Origin: a virus
Direction: 5' to 3' (one strand)
Length of the DNA: 64,000 nucleotides
Virus record (IMG/VR): IMGVR_UViG_3300009528_000013
Span: 1 to 64,000 of that record
Shown: piece by piece, positions 1,992-40,541 of the stretch
Position numbering within the stretch: position 1 is the stretch's first letter
Layout of the letters: every line of letters begins with the position of its first letter
Translations under genes and position numbers: made by a program
Notes under the pieces: model-generated
Told to the model about the DNA's origin: nothing
Database searches by the model: none
The model's input: only the letters and a program-made list of their open reading frames with translations

Positions 1992-4566
1992 CGGTGAGAA
2001 GGCGTTGAGGACGCAGAATAACGTCCGAAAATTTCTTCTTAGTTTTCAGAATTGATAAGACGTAAGTATCAATCGAATCCGGAACGACGAAATCGATAAT
2101 TGTGGTCTTCTTCGTTTGGCCGAGGCGATCTATCCTTCCTTCGCATTGATTCCGATCTCCCCAGGAGAAGTTGGATTCCAGGAAAATTGCGACACTCGCC
2201 GCCGTTAAATCAAGTCCAAGATTTACAGTCGAAATCTGTCCGAGAAAAAGCTGTGAAGTCGGATCATCTTGAAATCTCCTGATCTCCGCAGCACGTTTCT
2301 TTCGGACGGCACCGTAAACAACGGACGGATTTAGTTTCTTTTTTGTAGCCCATTCTTGTACTTTCCGTAACGTATGAAGAAATTGAACAAATACCAAAAT
2401 CTTTGTCTCAGTACCCAGTACTTCTCGCTCCATGTAATCGGTGAATGTTTTGAACTTCGATGTGCCGATCTCAGTAGTCACACCATCGCCATTCGTGATA
2501 AAGCCGCTGTTGATCTGATGCAATCGAAGAAGTTGCGTCAAGACATTGGTCGCAACGATTCTTTCGGTCGTGGATAATTGCATCAAGAAATTTTCCTTCA
2601 TCGAATAATACGCCGCGCTTTCGTCTGCGGAAAGCTTAACGGTTCGAGTTTGATAGGTTTTTGGAGGCAGATCAAACAGATCCTTTCGCGGAAAGGTGAT
2701 CCCGGCCGAATAAAGTCTCTTTCGGAAGTGTTCGATATTTCTCGGTCCGATGAAGGCTTTTCCATCATATCCACCGAGCGTTGCATACATTGCTTTGTAA
2801 TCTGCATATCTGGTTCCGAACACAGAAGCATCAAGGAATTTATATTGCGAAAATATGTCAAGGATATTATTTGGAGTCGGAAGCCCGGTCAGGATCAGTT
2901 TATAGGAAGTCCGAGCAAATGCCCGATAGAAAGCCCATGTGAGTTTTATCCCCGGATTTTTGATCTTGGTCGAATTGGAAACGATGATTCCATTTGCAAG
3001 AATATAATTATGGTTATCTTTGACTTCGAGATCATAAACCCGACCCAATCGCTTTTTTGGATTTTTGAGGGGCCGGAAATTCTCGTCTTTGCGGTTCAAT
3101 TTGATTTGCTCGATTGATGGAACTGTCATACTTTCAGTTATAGAAAACTTTCCCTCATAAGGAGTTTTGTAGTCCATACATCGCGGAATGTAAGGCCGGA
3201 TTAAATTGAAAAATCGAGTCTGTGAATCAGCACGAATCGAAATACAAAGTTGATCTTTCCGAACTTTCGATGAAATTGTTTGAATCCCAAATCTATCTCG
3301 AAGCCAAATCTGAAGTTTTCGAACCTCCTGTGGAGAAAAACCTTGAGTATGAAGTTGGACGCGGTACCAAGAATAGATTTTAACTATTCCATTCATCAAT
3401 AGCTGAGTTTTTTTGACTTTGACTCTAGATCCATCATCGAGATACCAGAACGCTAGCGAAACTTCATCGGCTTCATTGAGAAGTTCAATTGGAACTATTT
3501 TTTTTCCGTTTGGGTAAAATAATTTTCTCCAGCTTTTCGAAGTCTCGGTTGGACTTAGAAAAAAGTAATTAGAACGTCCCCAATCATTTTGAGCAGTAGT
3601 TGTCTGATTTGCGAAGACCTGAAACAATTTCCTTTTGAGATCGAAATATTCTTTTTGTTTTTCAGAATGAACAAACCAAATTTGACCTAGAGTTTTGTGA
3701 ATTGAAGCATCTCCTAACATACAGCCAATCAGAACCTTTCTCTGAAAATCGGAAAAATCCGGCATTGCTTTGTAAATCGAATCTCCGATTTGAAGCTTCT
3801 TTGCACTTCGAATCCCTCTGGAAGAAAAGAATTTATGCGAAGCAGTACAGATCACCGAATATGATTTTGATTTATTTCCGAAGTGTAGTTTCACGAAAGC
3901 ATGAAATCTGGGCTTTCGAAAAACTTTTTTTACTGTTTTCAATTCAACTTGTTCAGTTTGAAAATTAAAACTCCGAACAAGATTGCCTGGTTTCAGATTA
4001 GAGATCCGTTTACTACCATCCGAAGTCTGAACCAATGTATCTCCGCTCAGACATTCGTCTGCGATGACCATATCAAACCCTTTTGCCCGAAATCCTTTTT
4101 CATAAATTCTCACACTTTCGTAGTGACAGACCAATATCTCAGGCGGTTCTTTAACCGCAAGAAGGGAACCGATTTTCTCAAGTCGATTCCCCTCCATGAT
4201 TTCGAATTTTAGATCGCTGTGCTTCTCCAACTCGAATTCCCAGGTACTTAGAACAGACAGCGGACAAACAATCAAAGCCCTCTTAACTTGGCCCTGCTCG
4301 ATCCGATACCGAAGAATGTCGATTGCTGCTTTAGTTTTGCCGCTGCCGATCGGCAAGAGTAAAGCTGCGCAGTCTCGTTTCAAACCAAATTTGAACGTAG
4401 CCAATTGGTGAGCAAGCGGCTTCGTATGAAACCAAGATAGGGGGACTGGAAGCCCTCTCGCAAACTCATCGTACCGCAACTCCATCAGGGTCCCTTTGTG
4501 GGCCTTCTGGAAAAGAGAAAGCTGAGTCGGACTTCCTGGCTGATTTTGCATAGAGTGAATCGACAT
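1969..4566 (-). CDS. SNF2-family (SF2) helicase interrupted by a LAGLIDADG intein
   Basis: Walker A PIGSGKT, LIVCPLSV, Walker B IADE[intein]STKIKN, LILTGLP, motif V NLGLDL, motif VI QCEGRIDRLGQ. Confidence 0.92.
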   Translation of the reverse strand: MSIHSMQNQPGSPTQLSLFQKAHKGTLMELRYDEFARGLPVPLSWFHTKPLAHQLATFKFGLKRDCAALLLPIGSGKTKAAIDILRYRIEQGQVKRALIVCPLSVLSTWEFELEKHSDLKFEIMEGNRLEKIGSLLAVKEPPEILVCHYESVRIYEKGFRAKGFDMVIADECLSGDTLVQTSDGSKRISNLKPGNLVRSFNFQTEQVELKTVKKVFRKPRFHAFVKLHFGNKSKSYSVICTASHKFFSSRGIRSAKKLQIGDSIYKAMPDFSDFQRKVLIGCMLGDASIHKTLGQIWFVHSEKQKEYFDLKRKLFQVFANQTTTAQNDWGRSNYFFLSPTETSKSWRKLFYPNGKKIVPIELLNEADEVSLAFWYLDDGSRVKVKKTQLLMNGIVKIYSWYRVQLHTQGFSPQEVRKLQIWLRDRFGIQTISSKVRKDQLCISIRADSQTRFFNLIRPYIPRCMDYKTPYEGKFSITESMTVPSIEQIKLNRKDENFRPLKNPKKRLGRVYDLEVKDNHNYILANGIIVSNSTKIKNPGIKLTWAFYRAFARTSYKLILTGLPTPNNILDIFSQYKFLDASVFGTRYADYKAMYATLGGYDGKAFIGPRNIEHFRKRLYSAGITFPRKDLFDLPPKTYQTRTVKLSADESAAYYSMKENFLMQLSTTERIVATNVLTQLLRLHQINSGFITNGDGVTTEIGTSKFKTFTDYMEREVLGTETKILVFVQFLHTLRKVQEWATKKKLNPSVVYGAVRKKRAAEIRRFQDDPTSQLFLGQISTVNLGLDLTAASVAIFLESNFSWGDRNQCEGRIDRLGQTKKTTIIDFVVPDSIDTYVLSILKTKKKFSDVILRPQRLLTDGQKGLF
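2974..4053 (-). mobile_element. Intein (360 aa) with LAGLIDADG homing endonuclease
   Basis: Starts CLSGDTLV (Cys codon 4051-4053), ends VYDLEVKDNHNYILANGIIVSN followed by Ser +1; two motifs LIGCMLGDASI and LAFWYLDDGS; inserted in Walker B. Confidence 0.93.
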
Positions 4567-4585
4567 TACGGTCGCGCTCCCTCTC

Positions 4586-5680
4586 TTACGAAACCGGAAT
4601 CGGGATCTGTTGAACGCCGCTGGCAGGGAAAATGTACCGCTGGAATTCGGGCCCGGGCATCACGGAAATCTCATTGGCGGTCCGTTCGAATTCGATCTGA
4701 CCTTCTGGCTCGTCTTCGTCCTGTGCCAAACGAGAGATCGCATTTCCAAGCCCCCACTGAGTCGCCTCGCCCTGTGCGATAAAATGATCAACGAGCGATG
4801 TCCGTTTGCTCTGGGACATCTTCAACTTCACACCAACAACCTCAAGCGCCGTCGCCGGCGACTCGATCCTTTGGAATGAGGCTTGACGAAAGGATGCGAA
4901 CCACTTCTCAAAGGTCTCCAAACGCAGCGTCGCTCGAATCACGTCCTTGATTTCGCTCCAGAAAACGTCGTCTTTCTTCTGAAGTGTCTCGTCTGACCAG
5001 AAATCGCCGATGCCTTTCCGCTCGCCGAGGTGAACCTGCCGAACGATCGTCTCGCCGATCATACCGTTCGTGCATACCAGTCGAATCACATAAGGTTCGA
5101 TCTTGAAACTCCCCGCGCCGACTTCGCTGTTTGAAAGGATCACACCCGGAACCACGCGATCATCTTCACGGATCTCCTGCTCGGAGTGAGGAAGAACAGC
5201 CTTGAGATAAAGATGCTGATCTGTCAGATCACACCGGACGATAGTGACTTCCTCTCCATATTGCTCGAACTCCTCTAAAGCGCAACAGAGAAAGTCGAAA
5301 TTGTCAAGCGGACGGTACCGGGCGCTCAGGATCGCCCGAACTTTGTTGTCCTGAATTCGGATCAACCTCCGCTCCTTTTCCCTCAGCCAAGCGTTCACAT
5401 TGTCGGCGAGCAGTTGCGCCTTGCCAGCTTCTTGAACCCTCTGGTAGTACTTGAACGGGATCCCGGTCTTCTCAGCGAGTTGGCGGTGCGCCCACTGGTT
5501 CAGTAGGAAATCCTCCTTGTTGCCGTTTGTTTGTATGACGAATTGAATATCCGTATCGGCCGGAGAGACCCAGATGTCCTCGCTATCGACCACGACATCC
5601 CTCGAAGTCTCTTTTCTCCGCTCCAATTGCTCAACCAACCGGCTCAAATCCAACCCCTTCATCGGTTCGATAGAATTCAT
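4586..5680 (-). CDS. DUF932-family phage/plasmid protein
   Basis: AHRQLAEKTGIP, VRAILSARYRPLDN, GVILSNSEVGAGS, RLVCTNGM patterns typical of DUF932. Confidence 0.75.
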   Translation of the reverse strand: MNSIEPMKGLDLSRLVEQLERRKETSRDVVVDSEDIWVSPADTDIQFVIQTNGNKEDFLLNQWAHRQLAEKTGIPFKYYQRVQEAGKAQLLADNVNAWLREKERRLIRIQDNKVRAILSARYRPLDNFDFLCCALEEFEQYGEEVTIVRCDLTDQHLYLKAVLPHSEQEIREDDRVVPGVILSNSEVGAGSFKIEPYVIRLVCTNGMIGETIVRQVHLGERKGIGDFWSDETLQKKDDVFWSEIKDVIRATLRLETFEKWFASFRQASFQRIESPATALEVVGVKLKMSQSKRTSLVDHFIAQGEATQWGLGNAISRLAQDEDEPEGQIEFERTANEISVMPGPEFQRYIFPASGVQQIPIPVS

Positions 5681-16767: not shown

Positions 16768-16942
16768 GCCAGCCGATTTCTATTCGATGGATCCGCTTCC
16801 AACCAAAAGCTACAGAATTACGGTTGAATCAAAAGAGTTTCAATCCTTGTTTTAATGGATAGGTATCTAAACCAGTCGAATCGTCGGTAACGACTGTGAT
16901 GTTGAGGTTTCAATCCTTGTTTTGATGGATCGGTTCCGATAG
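16768..16942 (-). CRISPR. Mini CRISPR array: 3 repeats (36 nt; middle one intact, outer ones half-degenerate) and 2 spacers (34 and 33 nt); no cas genes in window
   Basis: Minus-strand repeats: 16942-16907 CTATCGGAACCGATCCATCAAAACAAGGATTGAAAC; 16872-16837 GTTTAGATACCTATCCATTAAAACAAGGATTGAAAC; 16803-16768 GTTGGAAGCGGATCCATCGAATAGAAATCGGCTGGC (degenerate). ATTGAAAC 3' end and ATCC/GGAT stem are typical of type I/III repeats. Confidence 0.8.
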
Positions 16943-34437: not shown

Positions 34438-34850
34438 CTCCCCCCTTTCAGAGTTTCCTTTTCCCGATCCCTGGATCTTGCCGAAAGCTGGAAACCCATG
34501 TCGAATGTAATGCCGACCAGATCCTCAACGTCCTTCGCCTCTGTTATCCGATTCTCAAACATATCGGTCAGATCCGGGGCCACTGCAAATACGACCCCGA
34601 GCTTCGTCAGCATTGCTCTCTTGAACCACCAGAGATCTTCCAGATCCTGTCGAGCGCCCAACTCTCTGATATACTCGGCGACCTCTCCTGAATCTACTTC
34701 TGGTCGGCTCCCAACGTACACAAGCCTTTCATCGGCTTCCCGACAGTTCATAGATGCAGAACGTGCGTGGCCTCGCGCTATACACTTATTCGCTTCCCAA
34801 ATCCGTGCACAAGCTCCCTGCAGTACGCCCTTGTTCTCTTTACTAAGCAT
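34434..34850 (-). CDS. hypothetical protein, family A paralog 2
   Basis: MLSKENKGVLQGACARI...CREADERL...KRAM..KLGVV...FENRI.EAK..E.LV..FDMGF aligns with 33836..34237. Confidence 0.7.
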   Translation of the reverse strand: MLSKENKGVLQGACARIWEANKCIARGHARSASMNCREADERLVYVGSRPEVDSGEVAEYIRELGARQDLEDLWWFKRAMLTKLGVVFAVAPDLTDMFENRITEAKDVEDLVGITFDMGFQLSARSRDREKETLKGGR

Positions 34851-34892
34851 CGGTCTGTCACCTCCTCTCGTTGTCGTTCTGTTTCTGTTTCA

Positions 34893-34955
34893 TCTCGCTA
34901 ACAGAGCCGGTGGCGTGCGGCCCCGTTTTCATCGTTACCGAATCATCGGGCGAGA
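34893..34955 (-). ncRNA. Type I hammerhead ribozyme HHR-A (variant core CCGAUGA); predicted cut after UUA between 34899 and 34898
   Basis: Minus strand: UCUCGC CCGAUGA UUCG-GUAA-CGAU GAA AACGGGGCCG-CACGCCAC-CGGCUCUGUU A GCGAGA; stems I, II and III all pair. Confidence 0.82.
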
Positions 34956-35984: not shown

Positions 35985-36524
35985 CTACTCATCGGATTCC
36001 GAATCATCACACTTCCAGAATCCGTAATCCGCCCCGTCTCCAGGACTCGCCCCGAAGTAATATCCCTCCGGAGCAATGGCGTCGAGCGCATCGAATAGAC
36101 CCCGAAGGACCCAACGCTTGCTCTCTTCGTTGCCTCCGGATTCCACTATTTCTACGAATTCTAACTCACGCCCTTCGGCCTCTTCAGGCTTTACTTCGGC
36201 AAGTGCCGCGATAAACTTCGGGATCAGATCGTCGGCGAGCATCGTTCCCTCGCTGACCGTTCCCCTAATGCTGGTCTCCGGCCTCTCGATCTCTTCGACC
36301 TCGTGCTTCTCTGCGAAGTCCAGTTCCCGAATGTTCACGGCGATCCTTTTGAGATCATTCATAGGTTTCTCCAGATCTGTCCGTACTTCTCTGAGACTCG
36401 GAAGCACTTGCTCAGCGACATCCAAGGAAACCGTCCTGCTCCGCATATCGAGTTCTTCGATCAGTTCTCCGATCCGCGACTTGGCGCTTCTCAGCGTCTG
36501 TATGGTGACGACCATAGGTATCAC
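35985..36524 (-). CDS. acidic hypothetical protein
   Basis: GTVSEGT..DDLIP.F...LFDALD..APEGYYFG..PGDGADYGFW pattern. Confidence 0.65.
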   Translation of the reverse strand: MIPMVVTIQTLRSAKSRIGELIEELDMRSRTVSLDVAEQVLPSLREVRTDLEKPMNDLKRIAVNIRELDFAEKHEVEEIERPETSIRGTVSEGTMLADDLIPKFIAALAEVKPEEAEGRELEFVEIVESGGNEESKRWVLRGLFDALDAIAPEGYYFGASPGDGADYGFWKCDDSESDE

Positions 36525-36616
36525 CTCCCTTCGATCTCGTTCTCTTCTTTCATCTCACGACCCAGGCCAGTGGCGTATGACCCAGGTTTCATCCTGTCGG
36601 AATCGTCAGGTGAGAT

Positions 36617-36907
36617 CTACTTAATGAACAACTGTTCTACTCCGTAGATTCCCCAGATCTCGTGCCGGTCGTCCTTAAAAGCCGTATGCCAGAGCAATCG
36701 GCCTCGGACTTTGATCAGCATCATAAACGATGTCCCGAGTCGAGCGGAACTGAAAACTGCGTCCACGTGAGTCCAACCGAGGATGTCGAAATCTCCGCTT
36801 TCGACATCTAATTGCTTGACATCGCTGACCGTAGCGATCTGAATCTGGCTGGCGATCTTCTTGTTCAGAGTCAAGACTTCGACCTTGATAATCTGTTCTC
36901 GCTTCAT
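36617..36907 (-). CDS. hypothetical protein
   Basis: 96 aa after start-associated sequence. Confidence 0.65.
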   Translation of the reverse strand: MKREQIIKVEVLTLNKKIASQIQIATVSDVKQLDVESGDFDILGWTHVDAVFSSARLGTSFMMLIKVRGRLLWHTAFKDDRHEIWGIYGVEQLFIK

Positions 36908-36949
36908 CGGTCTGTCACCTCCCCTCCTTCGGAATCTTCAGGCGAGACT

Positions 36950-38136: not shown

Positions 38137-38169
38137 CTCCCTTCGGTCTGTTGTAACTTACAACGTTTT

Positions 38170-38870
38170 TCATGGGAGTCATGAACAGACCTAAACCCCT
38201 ATGAAAATACTGTGATGTGGATCCGATTTTGAAAACGTAACTTCCGAAAGATCACACCAGAAAGACAAACGCCGAAAGTCTGACCTGTTTCCACTAACCC
38301 CTTGACCCAGAATGTCCTGAACGATTTTCAAGCCCCTCCGAAGAGAAGAAAGAAAGACCGAAAATCCGGATCCTTATCGCATTGATTCTATTGAAGTTAA
38401 GTGCGTTTATGACTCCCACTTTTCTGCCCTTTCAATACTTAGGTTCCAAGAACCCGGACCCTTATCACATTGTTTTTTAAGGCGCTTAGGTGCAGTTATG
38501 ACTCCCACCAAAACTGTCGTAAGTCGAAAAAGGGCGGTTTTTTCGACCCCTCATCGCATTGTTTTTTAAGGAGCTTAGGTGCAGTTATGACTCCCATTTA
38601 TTTACACACACAGCACCCCCCTCTCTCTAAGTTTTTACTTTTCCCCCCTCTGTCAAAAAAACAAGTACTTGGTTCCTTGTTACCCCCTTCTCAGACCCCA
38701 GACCCATAGAATAGTACTAGCTCAGAAATAGTCTATCCGTAGATAATATCTTTCTATATCAGTACGCTTAGTGTACTATATGTTATGTGTGTTCCTATAT
38801 GTGTGTGTATGTTTATGACTCCCATAAATACACTTAACTCCTTTATTTACAATGCGATAAGGGTTCGGCT
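38170..38870. repeat. Iteron-like repeat region, putative replication origin
   Basis: Three 47-48 bp direct repeats at 38372, 38460 and 38549 (CCTYATCRCATTG...TTATGACTCCCA); further TTATGACTCCCA at 38813; inverted copies at 38173 and 38820-38862; AT-rich tract 38700-38830; no long ORF. Confidence 0.6.
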
Positions 38871-39143
38871 TTTCCTGGGGGATTGTGCCTAACTTGTTGT
38901 TTTCCTTGACATTACGGAAGAAAGTCGGCAACCGAATCGGAGAGAATCGGAGAGCACCACTCGGTCGATTACCAGATTCTGGTCTCTCAAACCCCCTGGG
39001 ATTCTCTTGAACAGCGTCCTCCGATCTGAGAAGACGGTTCTCTCCCCTATGTTTTCTTTTCTAAGCCCTTTTCTTGTGTTTGAAAGCCCCCCCCAAAGGG
39101 AAAAAGGGTCCCCAATCTGTTAGAAATCTATTGGTTCTCTTGC

Positions 39144-39209
39144 ATCTCACGACCCTGGCCAGTGGAGTTTGGCCGTGGGTTTCGTCCTATTGGACTCATC
39201 GGGCGAGAC
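39144..39209 (-). ncRNA. Type I hammerhead ribozyme HHR-B (variant core CCGAUGA); predicted cut after GUC between 39151 and 39150
   Basis: Minus strand: GUCUCGC CCGAUGA GUCC-AAUA-GGAC GAA ACCC-AC-GGCCA-AACUCCAC-UGGCC-A-GGGU C GUGAGAU; canonical stem II and GUC triplet. Confidence 0.88.
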
Positions 39210-39975: not shown

Positions 39976-40437
39976 TCACTCTTCGACGGTCCCGGTCACT
40001 GTCCCCTTTGCACCGCACTTCGGGCAGGGGTCGAGCTCGAACGATTTGTAGATCCATCCGCACTCCAGGCACTCGATCATCATCCTCGCCTTCAGACCGC
40101 CACGGGACCGGCAGTATCGGGTTGCACCGAGACGTTCTCTTTCTTCCTGGAACGTATATCCGTGTCCGGTGTGGGGATTTGCGATATGGATGATCTCGTG
40201 TTTCAGGACTTCTCCGAGCTCGTGATTCCAACCGAACTCGTCGAAGTAATGTCCTGAGATGGTCAGCAAGAAGCGGTCGTCTTTCCGAAACCATCGAACT
40301 TTCGCCGCCACTCTTCTCAGTCGCTCCGAGATCTGAATCTCTACATTTCCCACTTTCAGGTAGGGGTAGCACTCATCCCGAACATCTGAAAGCATCTCCC
40401 AGATCTCATCGGGCGTCGGTCGTTTTCTGAACGGCAT
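39976..40437 (-). CDS. SprT-like zinc metalloprotease with C-terminal Zn ribbon
   Basis: VLKHEIIH (HExxH), GHG..F, CLECG...CPKCG; start refined to MPFRK. Confidence 0.85.
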   Translation of the reverse strand: MPFRKRPTPDEIWEMLSDVRDECYPYLKVGNVEIQISERLRRVAAKVRWFRKDDRFLLTISGHYFDEFGWNHELGEVLKHEIIHIANPHTGHGYTFQEERERLGATRYCRSRGGLKARMMIECLECGWIYKSFELDPCPKCGAKGTVTGTVEE

Positions 40438-40478: not shown

Positions 40479-40541
40479 TCTCGCTAACGGAGTCGGTGGA
40501 GTACGACCCCATTTTCATCCTTTTGGAATCATCGGGCGAGA
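40479..40541 (-). ncRNA. Type I hammerhead ribozyme HHR-C (variant core CCGAUGA); predicted cut after UUA between 40485 and 40484
   Basis: Minus strand: UCUCGC CCGAUGA UUCC-AAAA-GGAU GAA AAUGGGGUCG-UACUCCAC-CGACUCCGUU A GCGAGA; compensatory changes versus HHR-A in stems II and III. Confidence 0.82.

What the first reader, a model, noticed from the sequence alone, without database searches (positions are those of the whole stretch)
39144..39209. Shared non-canonical core: C at position 4 in all three copies, U.U at 10.1/11.1 in two
Seen: all three cores read CCGAUGA rather than the consensus CUGAUGA. HHR-A and HHR-C also have U10.1.U11.1 in place of G10.1-C11.1 and cut at UUA, whereas HHR-B keeps GUCC/GGAC and GUC. 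Established: U4 is part of the conserved uridine turn, so standard pattern searches would miss these. Inference: retention in three diverged copies argues for selection, either a tuned slow-cleaving variant or one that needs a ligand or protein. I cannot confirm whether this exact variant is already described.
Basis: partly seen in the sequence, partly recalled or inferred. Interest (0 to 1): 0.75.

Follow-up and report, generated by a model that had tools for sequence, protein, structure and literature searches.

The report
Phage hammerhead ribozymes with C4 core

Summary
The letters reported are all correct. Three type I hammerhead motifs on the minus strand (40479-40541, 39144-39209, 34893-34955) read CCGAUGA. 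Two have U10.1.U11.1 and cut at UUA; one has GUCC/GGAC and GUC.

The set is incomplete. A covariance model found a fourth intact paralogue (36552-36616) with canonical CUGACGA, U.U and GUC, plus a degenerate remnant (36895-36949) with CUGAAGA. C4 is therefore not shared by the whole family.

Stems covary. Across the four copies the only core positions that vary are 4, 7 and 17, so the core is under selection. Retention of C4 itself is explained by common descent.

C4 is not unique to this phage. One restrictive IMG/VR pattern gave 16 complete C4 hammerheads (types I and III); the A4/G4 control gave none. Earlier notes from this scan report C4 phage hammerheads on other DNA too.

Published work already describes U4C (a viroid, weakened in vitro) and natural U10.1.U11.1.

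Most likely these are working, possibly slowed, ribozymes that cut the early polycistronic mRNA about 45 nt before the next start codon. Cleavage is untested. No relatives' DNA or RNA reads could be obtained.

The parts
40479..40541 (-). Type I hammerhead copy (HH_40.5k). Core CCGAUGA with C4 at 40534. Stem II is UUCC-AAAA-GGAU (U10.1.U11.1). Stem III is 10 bp with loop UACUCCAC. Triplet UUA; predicted cleavage between 40485 and 40484. The stop codon UGA of the upstream ORF (40531-40529) is U7-G8-A9 of the core. The next ATG is at 40437, giving a 47-nt leader.
39144..39209 (-). Type I hammerhead copy (HH_39.2k, the finding's own coordinates). Core CCGAUGA with C4 at 39201. Stem II is GUCC-AAUA-GGAC. 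Stem III has a small internal loop and terminal loop AACUCCAC. Triplet GUC; predicted cleavage between 39151 and 39150. It starts at the G of the upstream ORF's TAG stop codon (39211-39209). It is followed by about 1 kb without a convincing ORF.
   Evidence: (RF00163 20.7 bits, cut-off 34)
36552..36616 (-). Canonical core CUGACGA with U4 at 36608. Stem II is UUCC-GACA-GGAU (U10.1.U11.1). Stem III is 10 bp with loop UACGCCAC. Triplet GUC; predicted cleavage between 36559 and 36558. The next ATG is at 36515, giving a 43-nt leader.
34893..34955 (-). Type I hammerhead copy (HH_34.9k). Core CCGAUGA with C4 at 34948. Stem II is UUCG-GUAA-CGAU (U10.1.U11.1). Stem III is 10 bp with loop CACGCCAC. Triplet UUA; predicted cleavage between 34899 and 34898. 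The next ATG is at 34850, giving a 48-nt leader.
36895..36949 (-). Probable degenerate fifth copy. It keeps GUCUCGC-CUGAAGA-UUCC GAA GGA. GAAA and stem III are replaced by the GGAGGUGACAGACCG-AUG leader of the next gene. AGCGAGA then lies inside codons 2-4 of that gene. It has U at position 4.
   Evidence: 21 bits, E about 1e-3

Best explanation
The window is part of a 117.8-kb uncultivated phage genome. Its leftward early operon of small genes of mostly unknown function is punctuated by four paralogous type I hammerhead ribozymes in the sense orientation. Each begins at or within a few bases of the stop codon of one gene. Three of them end about 45 nt before the start codon of the next gene.

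Inferred mechanism: the nascent polycistronic RNA folds into the three-way junction and cuts itself after H17. The upstream mRNA then ends in a compact hammerhead fold with a 2',3'-cyclic phosphate. The downstream mRNA begins with a 5'-OH and the leader GYGAGAU. This uncouples the stability and expression of neighbouring early genes.

The C at position 4 (three copies) and the U.U at 10.1/11.1 (three copies) are tolerated natural variations of the hammerhead core. They probably lower the intrinsic cleavage rate without abolishing it. C4 is inherited by descent among paralogues and interchanges with U4 within the family.

Shown: the motifs, their covariation, core conservation, gene context, and the recurrence of C4 elsewhere. 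Inferred: self-cleavage, its rate and its biological role.
For: Motif and structure:
- Four full hammerhead motifs against 0.05 expected.
- On the four-copy alignment, 95% of cells are paired and 6 pairs change on both sides. None of 500 shuffles reaches the observed pairing or covariation, and slid controls give 34-49% paired.
- Among core columns only positions 4, 7 and 17 vary, while 23 of 50 non-core columns vary. Positions 7 and 17 are the known free positions.

Context:
- All copies lie on the coding strand next to stop codons, with leaders of 43-48 nt to the next ATG.
- The genome is a virus record with a portal gene and divergent early and late modules.

C4 elsewhere:
- 19 IMG/VR loci match CCGANGA-GUCC-N4-6-GGAC-GAAAC, and 16 of them are complete type I or III hammerheads, often beside canonical U4 copies.
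- The A4/G4 control pattern found 0 loci.
- C4 is kept at the orthologous site in contigs only 78% identical.

Literature:
- Clustered hammerheads flank genes in prophages. The U4C viroid variant stays infectious. U10.1.U11.1 occurs naturally and is the best-tolerated mispair (PMC3088659).
- Hammerheads flank small non-conserved ORFs in phage contexts (PMC6155905).
Against: - No cleavage data exist for these RNAs.
- Published in vitro work says U4C 'considerably decreases activity' (PMC3088659 citing Ambros & Flores 1998).
- All single mutants of the CUGA U-turn had low co-transcriptional activity in a type III hammerhead (PMC9901934).
- Perreault et al. built a C4 Aedes construct ('cCgauga'), and the Aedes examples appear among their inactive RNAs. 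This is a weak test, because consensus Aedes hammerheads were also inactive.
- Three copies combine C4 with a mispaired 10.1/11.1, or sit on a 6-bp stem I with no obvious loop II/stem I tertiary contact. They could therefore be very slow.
- Rfam scores are below the cut-off.
- No related phage DNA could be obtained to test conservation across genomes.
Confidence: 0.68

Rival explanations
1. The three C4 copies are catalytically dead or nearly dead relics, and only the U4 copy (36.6k) cuts. The conserved fold of the C4 copies is kept for another reason. Candidates are a 3'-end stabiliser, an RNase or protein recognition site using the conserved loop III (NACKCCAC), or simply recent duplication.
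For: U4C and other U-turn mutants have low activity in vitro. An Aedes C4 construct appears among the inactive RNAs. Loop III, which plays no part in hammerhead catalysis, is conserved in all four copies. A decayed remnant shows that copies in this phage do die.
Against: If the C4 copies were dead, the other ten essential core bases should drift like the stems do. None has changed, although non-core identity is 62-80%. Stems II and III keep pairing through double changes. In IMG/VR, C4 hammerheads have otherwise perfect cores, persist at 78% flank identity, and A4/G4 variants are absent. That pattern fits tolerance of C, not decay.
Confidence: 0.17
2. The C4 (+U.U) core is a conditional ribozyme. 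Cleavage would need a particular condition or partner, so cutting of the early transcript is timed. Candidates are low pH (protonated C4 restoring the U-turn hydrogen bond), a different metal because the G10.1 N7 ligand is missing, or a phage or host protein bound to loop III.
For: Another phage core variant (A6C, Bcep176) shifts metal preference to Mn2+ (PMC7151607). That paper's introduction names the G10.1 nitrogen and the A9 phosphate as metal ligands, and U10.1 removes one of them. Perreault et al. speculate that slower phage variants may be activated by conditions or signals. Loop III is conserved.
Against: There is no direct evidence. The U4 copy shares U.U and loop III with the C4 copies, so these features are not specific to C4. 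C4 occurs in many unrelated phage hammerheads with ordinary G10.1-C11.1 and unrelated loops. This argues for simple tolerance rather than a dedicated switch.
Confidence: 0.12
3. Chance resemblance, or a different RNA family that only looks like a hammerhead.
For: There is no Rfam hit at gathering score.
Against: There are 4 hits against 0.05 expected. Twelve or thirteen of 13 core positions match in each copy. The three stems covary. The best Rfam hit in a local scan is Hammerhead_1 for the 39.2k copy; for the 36.6k copy it is the RAGATH-1 hammerhead, with Hammerhead_1 also listed.
Confidence: 0.03

Closest known systems
Type I hammerhead ribozymes clustered between genes of phages and prophages (Perreault et al. 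2011, PMC3088659; Rfam RF00163, clan CL00010)
   Same: Three-way junction with stem I open. Core C-Y-G-A-N-G-A / G-A-A / A15.1-U16.1 / H17. Sense orientation in intergenic gaps of an operon of small genes of unknown function. Several copies lie within a few kb.
   Different: Three of the four copies have C4, and three of the four have U10.1.U11.1. Stem III is unusually long (10 bp) with a conserved 8-nt loop. Stem I has no obvious bulge for a loop II contact. Rfam scores are 13-21 bits against a cut-off of 34.
U4C variant of a viroid hammerhead (Ambros & Flores 1998, as cited in PMC3088659)
   Same: The same single change at core position 4. Reported as weakened in vitro yet sufficient in vivo.
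   Different: That case is a type III hammerhead in a replicating plant viroid RNA. These are DNA-encoded phage type I motifs. I could not read the original paper.
Natural hammerheads with a U10.1-U11.1 mismatch (Perreault et al. 2011, Figure 5; Ruffner et al. 1990 as cited there)
   Same: Stem II starts with U.U. This is described as the best-tolerated mispair at that position.
   Different: Here it is combined with C4 in two copies.
C4 hammerheads in other IMG/VR phage contigs (e.g. L168/L177/L173, L169, L179-L181 type I; L166, L167, L172, L174-L176, L182 type III)
   Same: CCGAYGA core with all other core bases and all three stems intact. They sit in intergenic phage contexts, often next to canonical U4 copies.
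   Different: They are unrelated in stem sequences. All have G10.1-C11.1, but the search pattern required it. They have short stems III.
RAGATH-1 hammerhead (RF03152)
   Same: A hammerhead core variant. It is the top local Rfam hit for the 36.6k copy.
   Different: It scores 19.8 bits against a cut-off of 56.3, so the copy is not a member.

Membership tests
Hammerhead ribozyme (type I) | Three helices around a junction, with the 5' and 3' ends in stem I | tested here: met
   MFE folds. 95% of pair cells are paired and 6 pairs have double changes.
Hammerhead ribozyme (type I) | Core strand C3-U4-G5-A6-N7-G8-A9 | tested here: not met
   Met in full only by the 36.6k copy (CUGACGA). The 40.5k, 39.2k and 34.9k copies read CCGAUGA, so U4 is replaced by C. 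U4C is a documented natural variant (PMC3088659), so the three are filed as variant paralogues of a member, not as consensus members.
Hammerhead ribozyme (type I) | G12-A13-A14, A15.1-U16.1 pair, H17 at the cleavage site | tested here: met
   All four copies have these. H17 is A, C, C, A at 40485, 39151, 36559 and 34899.
Hammerhead ribozyme (type I) | Watson-Crick pair at 10.1/11.1 (usually G-C) | tested here: not met
   G-C occurs only in the 39.2k copy; the other three have U.U (pair 18-29). A natural U.U exception is documented.
Hammerhead ribozyme (type I) | Rfam RF00163 gathering score (34 bits) | tested here: not met
   20.7 bits (39.2k) and 13.1 bits (36.6k). No hit was returned for the 40.5k copy, and the 34.9k copy was not scanned on its own. 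C4 hammerheads from other phages also fall just short, at 28.7-38.4 bits.
Hammerhead ribozyme (type I) | Stem I / loop II tertiary contact or pseudoknot needed for fast cleavage | tested here: inconclusive
   Loop II is AAAA, AAUA, GACA or GUAA. Stem I is 6-7 bp with no evident bulge. I identified no covarying pseudoknot by eye.
Hammerhead ribozyme (type I) | Site-specific self-cleavage giving 2',3'-cyclic phosphate and 5'-OH ends | not testable with these tools
No RNA data were available.
Phage/prophage clustered hammerheads | Several copies flanking single genes or short gene blocks in a phage operon, in sense orientation | tested here: met
   Four copies and one remnant lie within 5.7 kb on the coding strand of a virus record.

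The most novel reading that the evidence does not exclude
Position 4 of the hammerhead core is really a pyrimidine (Y) position in phage ribozymes. In this phage the C4 + U10.1.U11.1 combination makes conditionally active (pH-, metal- or protein-tuned) ribozymes that time the break-up of the early transcript. The U4 paralogue would serve as the constitutive cutter.
Probability: 0.12. Interest if true: 0.6.

Novelty: new member of a known kind. Interest (0 to 1): 0.3.

Why it matters
Hammerhead searches and textbooks treat U4 as invariant, and Rfam cut-offs drop C4 copies. This locus adds to evidence that C, but not A or G, is tolerated at position 4 in phage hammerheads.

It also offers a convenient natural experiment. 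One phage carries four paralogues that differ in U4/C4, U.U/G-C and GUC/UUA on a shared scaffold. A small kinetic study could measure what each change costs. Beyond that, it is an ordinary example of clustered phage hammerheads, whose biological role is still an open question.

Tried and rejected
Searches for relatives of this hammerhead family:
- Four pattern scans of IMG/VR gave only coding-sequence chance matches.
- One scan each of the metagenome and genome collections gave only chance matches.
- blastn of the early region and of single copies against GenBank phages found nothing.

Related phages through proteins:
- Terminase back-translation in IMG/VR found nothing, or only 22%-identity loci.
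- The protein database does hold terminase relatives at 66-89% identity (P0002-P0007).

Ideas rejected:
- An alternative register that would give a canonical core. None exists in GCCCGAUGA.
- Loop III pairing with the downstream Shine-Dalgarno sequence. It works only for the 40.5k copy (GGUGG/CCACC), not for 34.9k or 36.6k. This was checked by eye only.
- A coding constraint on C4. Only the 40.5k copy overlaps an ORF (…CUC GCC CGA UGA), and U4 would merely shorten that ORF by one codon.

Papers I could not read: Ambros & Flores 1998 and Nelson & Uhlenbeck 2008 are not held.

Full report
**What is there.** The finding's coordinates (39144-39209) read on the minus strand as GUCUCGC-CCGAUGA-GUCC AAUA GGAC-GAAA-[stem III]-GUC|GUGAGAU. 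This is a complete type I hammerhead layout with C at position 4.

- Two homologous elements lie at 40479-40541 and 34893-34955. Both have CCGAUGA, a stem II that starts with U.U (UUCC AAAA GGAU and UUCG GUAA CGAU), and the triplet UUA.
- MFE folds give the three-way junction for the 40.5k and 39.2k copies. The 34.9k copy keeps stems I and III, but its MFE swaps stem II for a CCGA/UCGG pairing that extends stem I.
- There is no canonical CUGAUGA…GAAA string in the window.
- Rfam finds no hammerhead at gathering score. In a local scan the 39.2k copy reaches 20.7 bits on RF00163, whose cut-off is 34.

**A fourth copy changes the picture.** A covariance model built from the three copies was searched over the whole 117,770-bp virus record. 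A four-copy model was then run without filters over the window.

- Both found a fourth intact element at 36552-36616(-), at 71-84 bits.
- It reads AUCUCAC-CUGACGA-UUCC GACA GGAU-GAAA-ACCUGGGUCA UACGCCAC UGGCCUGGGU-C|GUGAGAU.
- Its core is canonical (U4, C7). It has U10.1.U11.1 and cuts at GUC.
- A fifth, weak match (36895-36949, 21 bits) keeps stem I 5', CUGAAGA and stem II. It has lost GAAA and stem III to the GGAGGUGACAGACCG-AUG leader of the next gene.
- So C4 occurs in three of four intact copies and U.U in three of four. The statement that the whole family shares C4 is wrong.

**Is it real and under selection?**

- A generic type I descriptor gives 4 hits in the window against a mean of 0.05 in 100 shuffles.
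- On the four-copy alignment A4, 95% of pair cells are standard pairs and 6 of 20 pairs change on both sides. None of 500 shuffles reaches the observed pairing or covariation. Slid controls give 34-49% paired.
- Non-core identity is 80% for 40.5k/34.9k and 78% for 39.2k/36.6k. Between these two groups it is 62-70%.
- 23 of 50 non-core columns vary. Among the 13 core columns only positions 4, 7 and 17 vary.
- Positions 7 and 17 are the two positions the hammerhead consensus leaves free (N7, H17; consensus as given in PMC3088659). The conservation pattern therefore mirrors hammerhead function, except that position 4 behaves as C or U.
- C4 copy 39.2k is closest to the U4 copy. The U4 remnant shares stem I letters with the 40.5k/34.9k group. 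This points to at least one switch between U4 and C4, or recombination, inside the family.
- Retention of C4 in three paralogues is expected from descent alone. It is not evidence of selection for C.

**Context and likely mechanism.**

- The record is an IMG/VR virus genome, 87% complete.
- Plus-strand late genes, including a portal, start near 43 kb. A long minus-strand block of small genes, almost all without family matches, runs leftwards from about 42 kb.
- All hammerheads are in the sense orientation.
- The 39.2k, 36.6k and 34.9k copies start at or within two bases of the stop codon of the preceding ORF. In the 40.5k copy the ORF's UGA is U7-G8-A9 of the core.
- Predicted cleavage leaves 47-, 43- and 48-nt leaders before the next ATG.
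- The 39.2k copy precedes about 1 kb of repeat-rich non-coding DNA.
- This is the arrangement Perreault et al. described for prophage hammerheads. They proposed that it cuts long phage transcripts into gene-length mRNAs (also PMC6155905).
- I infer the same here. Cleavage itself is not shown.

**Is the variant known or common?**

[quoted passage not shown] U10.1-U11.1 occurs in natural hammerheads and is the best-tolerated mispair.
- The primer table of that paper includes an Aedes 'cCgauga' construct, and the Aedes examples are listed among inactive RNAs.
- Deep mutagenesis found low activity for all single U-turn mutants (PMC9901934).
- I found no paper describing C4 in phage hammerheads.

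Database evidence on C4:

| Test | Result |
|---|---|
| IMG/VR pattern CCGANGA-GUCC-N4-6-GGAC-GAAAC | 19 loci (about 1 expected by my estimate) |
| Of these, complete type I or III hammerheads with intact stems | 16 |
| A4/G4 control, 5-nt loop II (against 14 C4 loci with a 5-nt loop) | 0 loci |
| C4 at the orthologous site, L168 vs L173 | retained at 78% flank identity |
| Other hammerheads in the C4-bearing loci | 11, all U4 |
| Rfam scores of C4 copies from other phages | 28.7-38.4 bits, below the cut-offs; U4 sibling in L172 scores 48.1 |

- Several C4 copies sit beside canonical U4 copies. For example, four U4 and one C4 lie within 2.3 kb in L168 and L177.
- C4 is therefore a recurrent minority variant that selection specifically tolerates.
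- The Rfam scores explain why such copies go unrecorded.
- Earlier notes of this scan report C4 phage hammerheads in several other genomes. I treated them as leads and tested the claim with the scans above.

**Limits.**

- No DNA of related phages could be obtained.
Conservation across phages and in vivo ends are therefore untested.
- Pattern scans for this family elsewhere gave only chance matches.

**Verdict.** These are genuine paralogous phage type I hammerhead motifs, and the letters reported are correct. The non-canonical features are each already described, and C4 recurs widely. The family includes a canonical U4 copy. The element is a new member of a known kind. Its modest added value is a natural U4/C4, U.U/G-C, GUC/UUA comparison set on one scaffold.

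Noticed in passing
Any other note on 'three ribozymes' in this window should be updated to four plus a remnant.
   Followed up: yes
window 36895-36949 (-): A hammerhead remnant whose stem I halves (UCUCGC / GCGAGA) now bracket the Shine-Dalgarno sequence and ATG of ORF 36617-36907. It could be a relic, or a hairpin that sequesters the start site.
   Followed up: partly
window 38137-39143 (-): About 1 kb without a convincing ORF lies directly after the 39.2k hammerhead. It holds about four direct repeats of roughly 50 nt (GGGAGTCATAA..GCAC..AATGYGATAAGG) and one inverted partial copy (CATGACTCCCATG near 38180). It looks iteron-like, so it may be a replication origin or a set of repeated small transcription units.
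   Followed up: partly
loop III of all four copies (e.g. window 40494-40501): The 8-nt loop NACKCCAC is conserved although the stem below it covaries. Loop III plays no part in hammerhead catalysis. Pairing with the downstream SD fits only one copy.
   Followed up: partly
window, minus strand, e.g. 34850-34870, 36905-36925: A conserved GGAGGUGACAGACCG-AUG leader precedes several early genes. It contains CCGAUG, which explains part of the excess of CCGATGAG in the window (10 matches against 3.6 expected).
   Followed up: partly
window 16837-16873 (-): A single match to the CRISPR-DR7 repeat family (40.8 bits, cut-off 37) inside the phage genome. It may be a phage-borne CRISPR repeat or mini-array.
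   Followed up: no
L168 (minus strand, reverse-complement coordinates 2881-5228) and L177 3123-5272: IMG/VR contigs with five type I hammerheads in about 2.3 kb: four with U4 and one with C4. The C4 copy is conserved in a third contig (L173) at 78% flank identity.
   Followed up: partly
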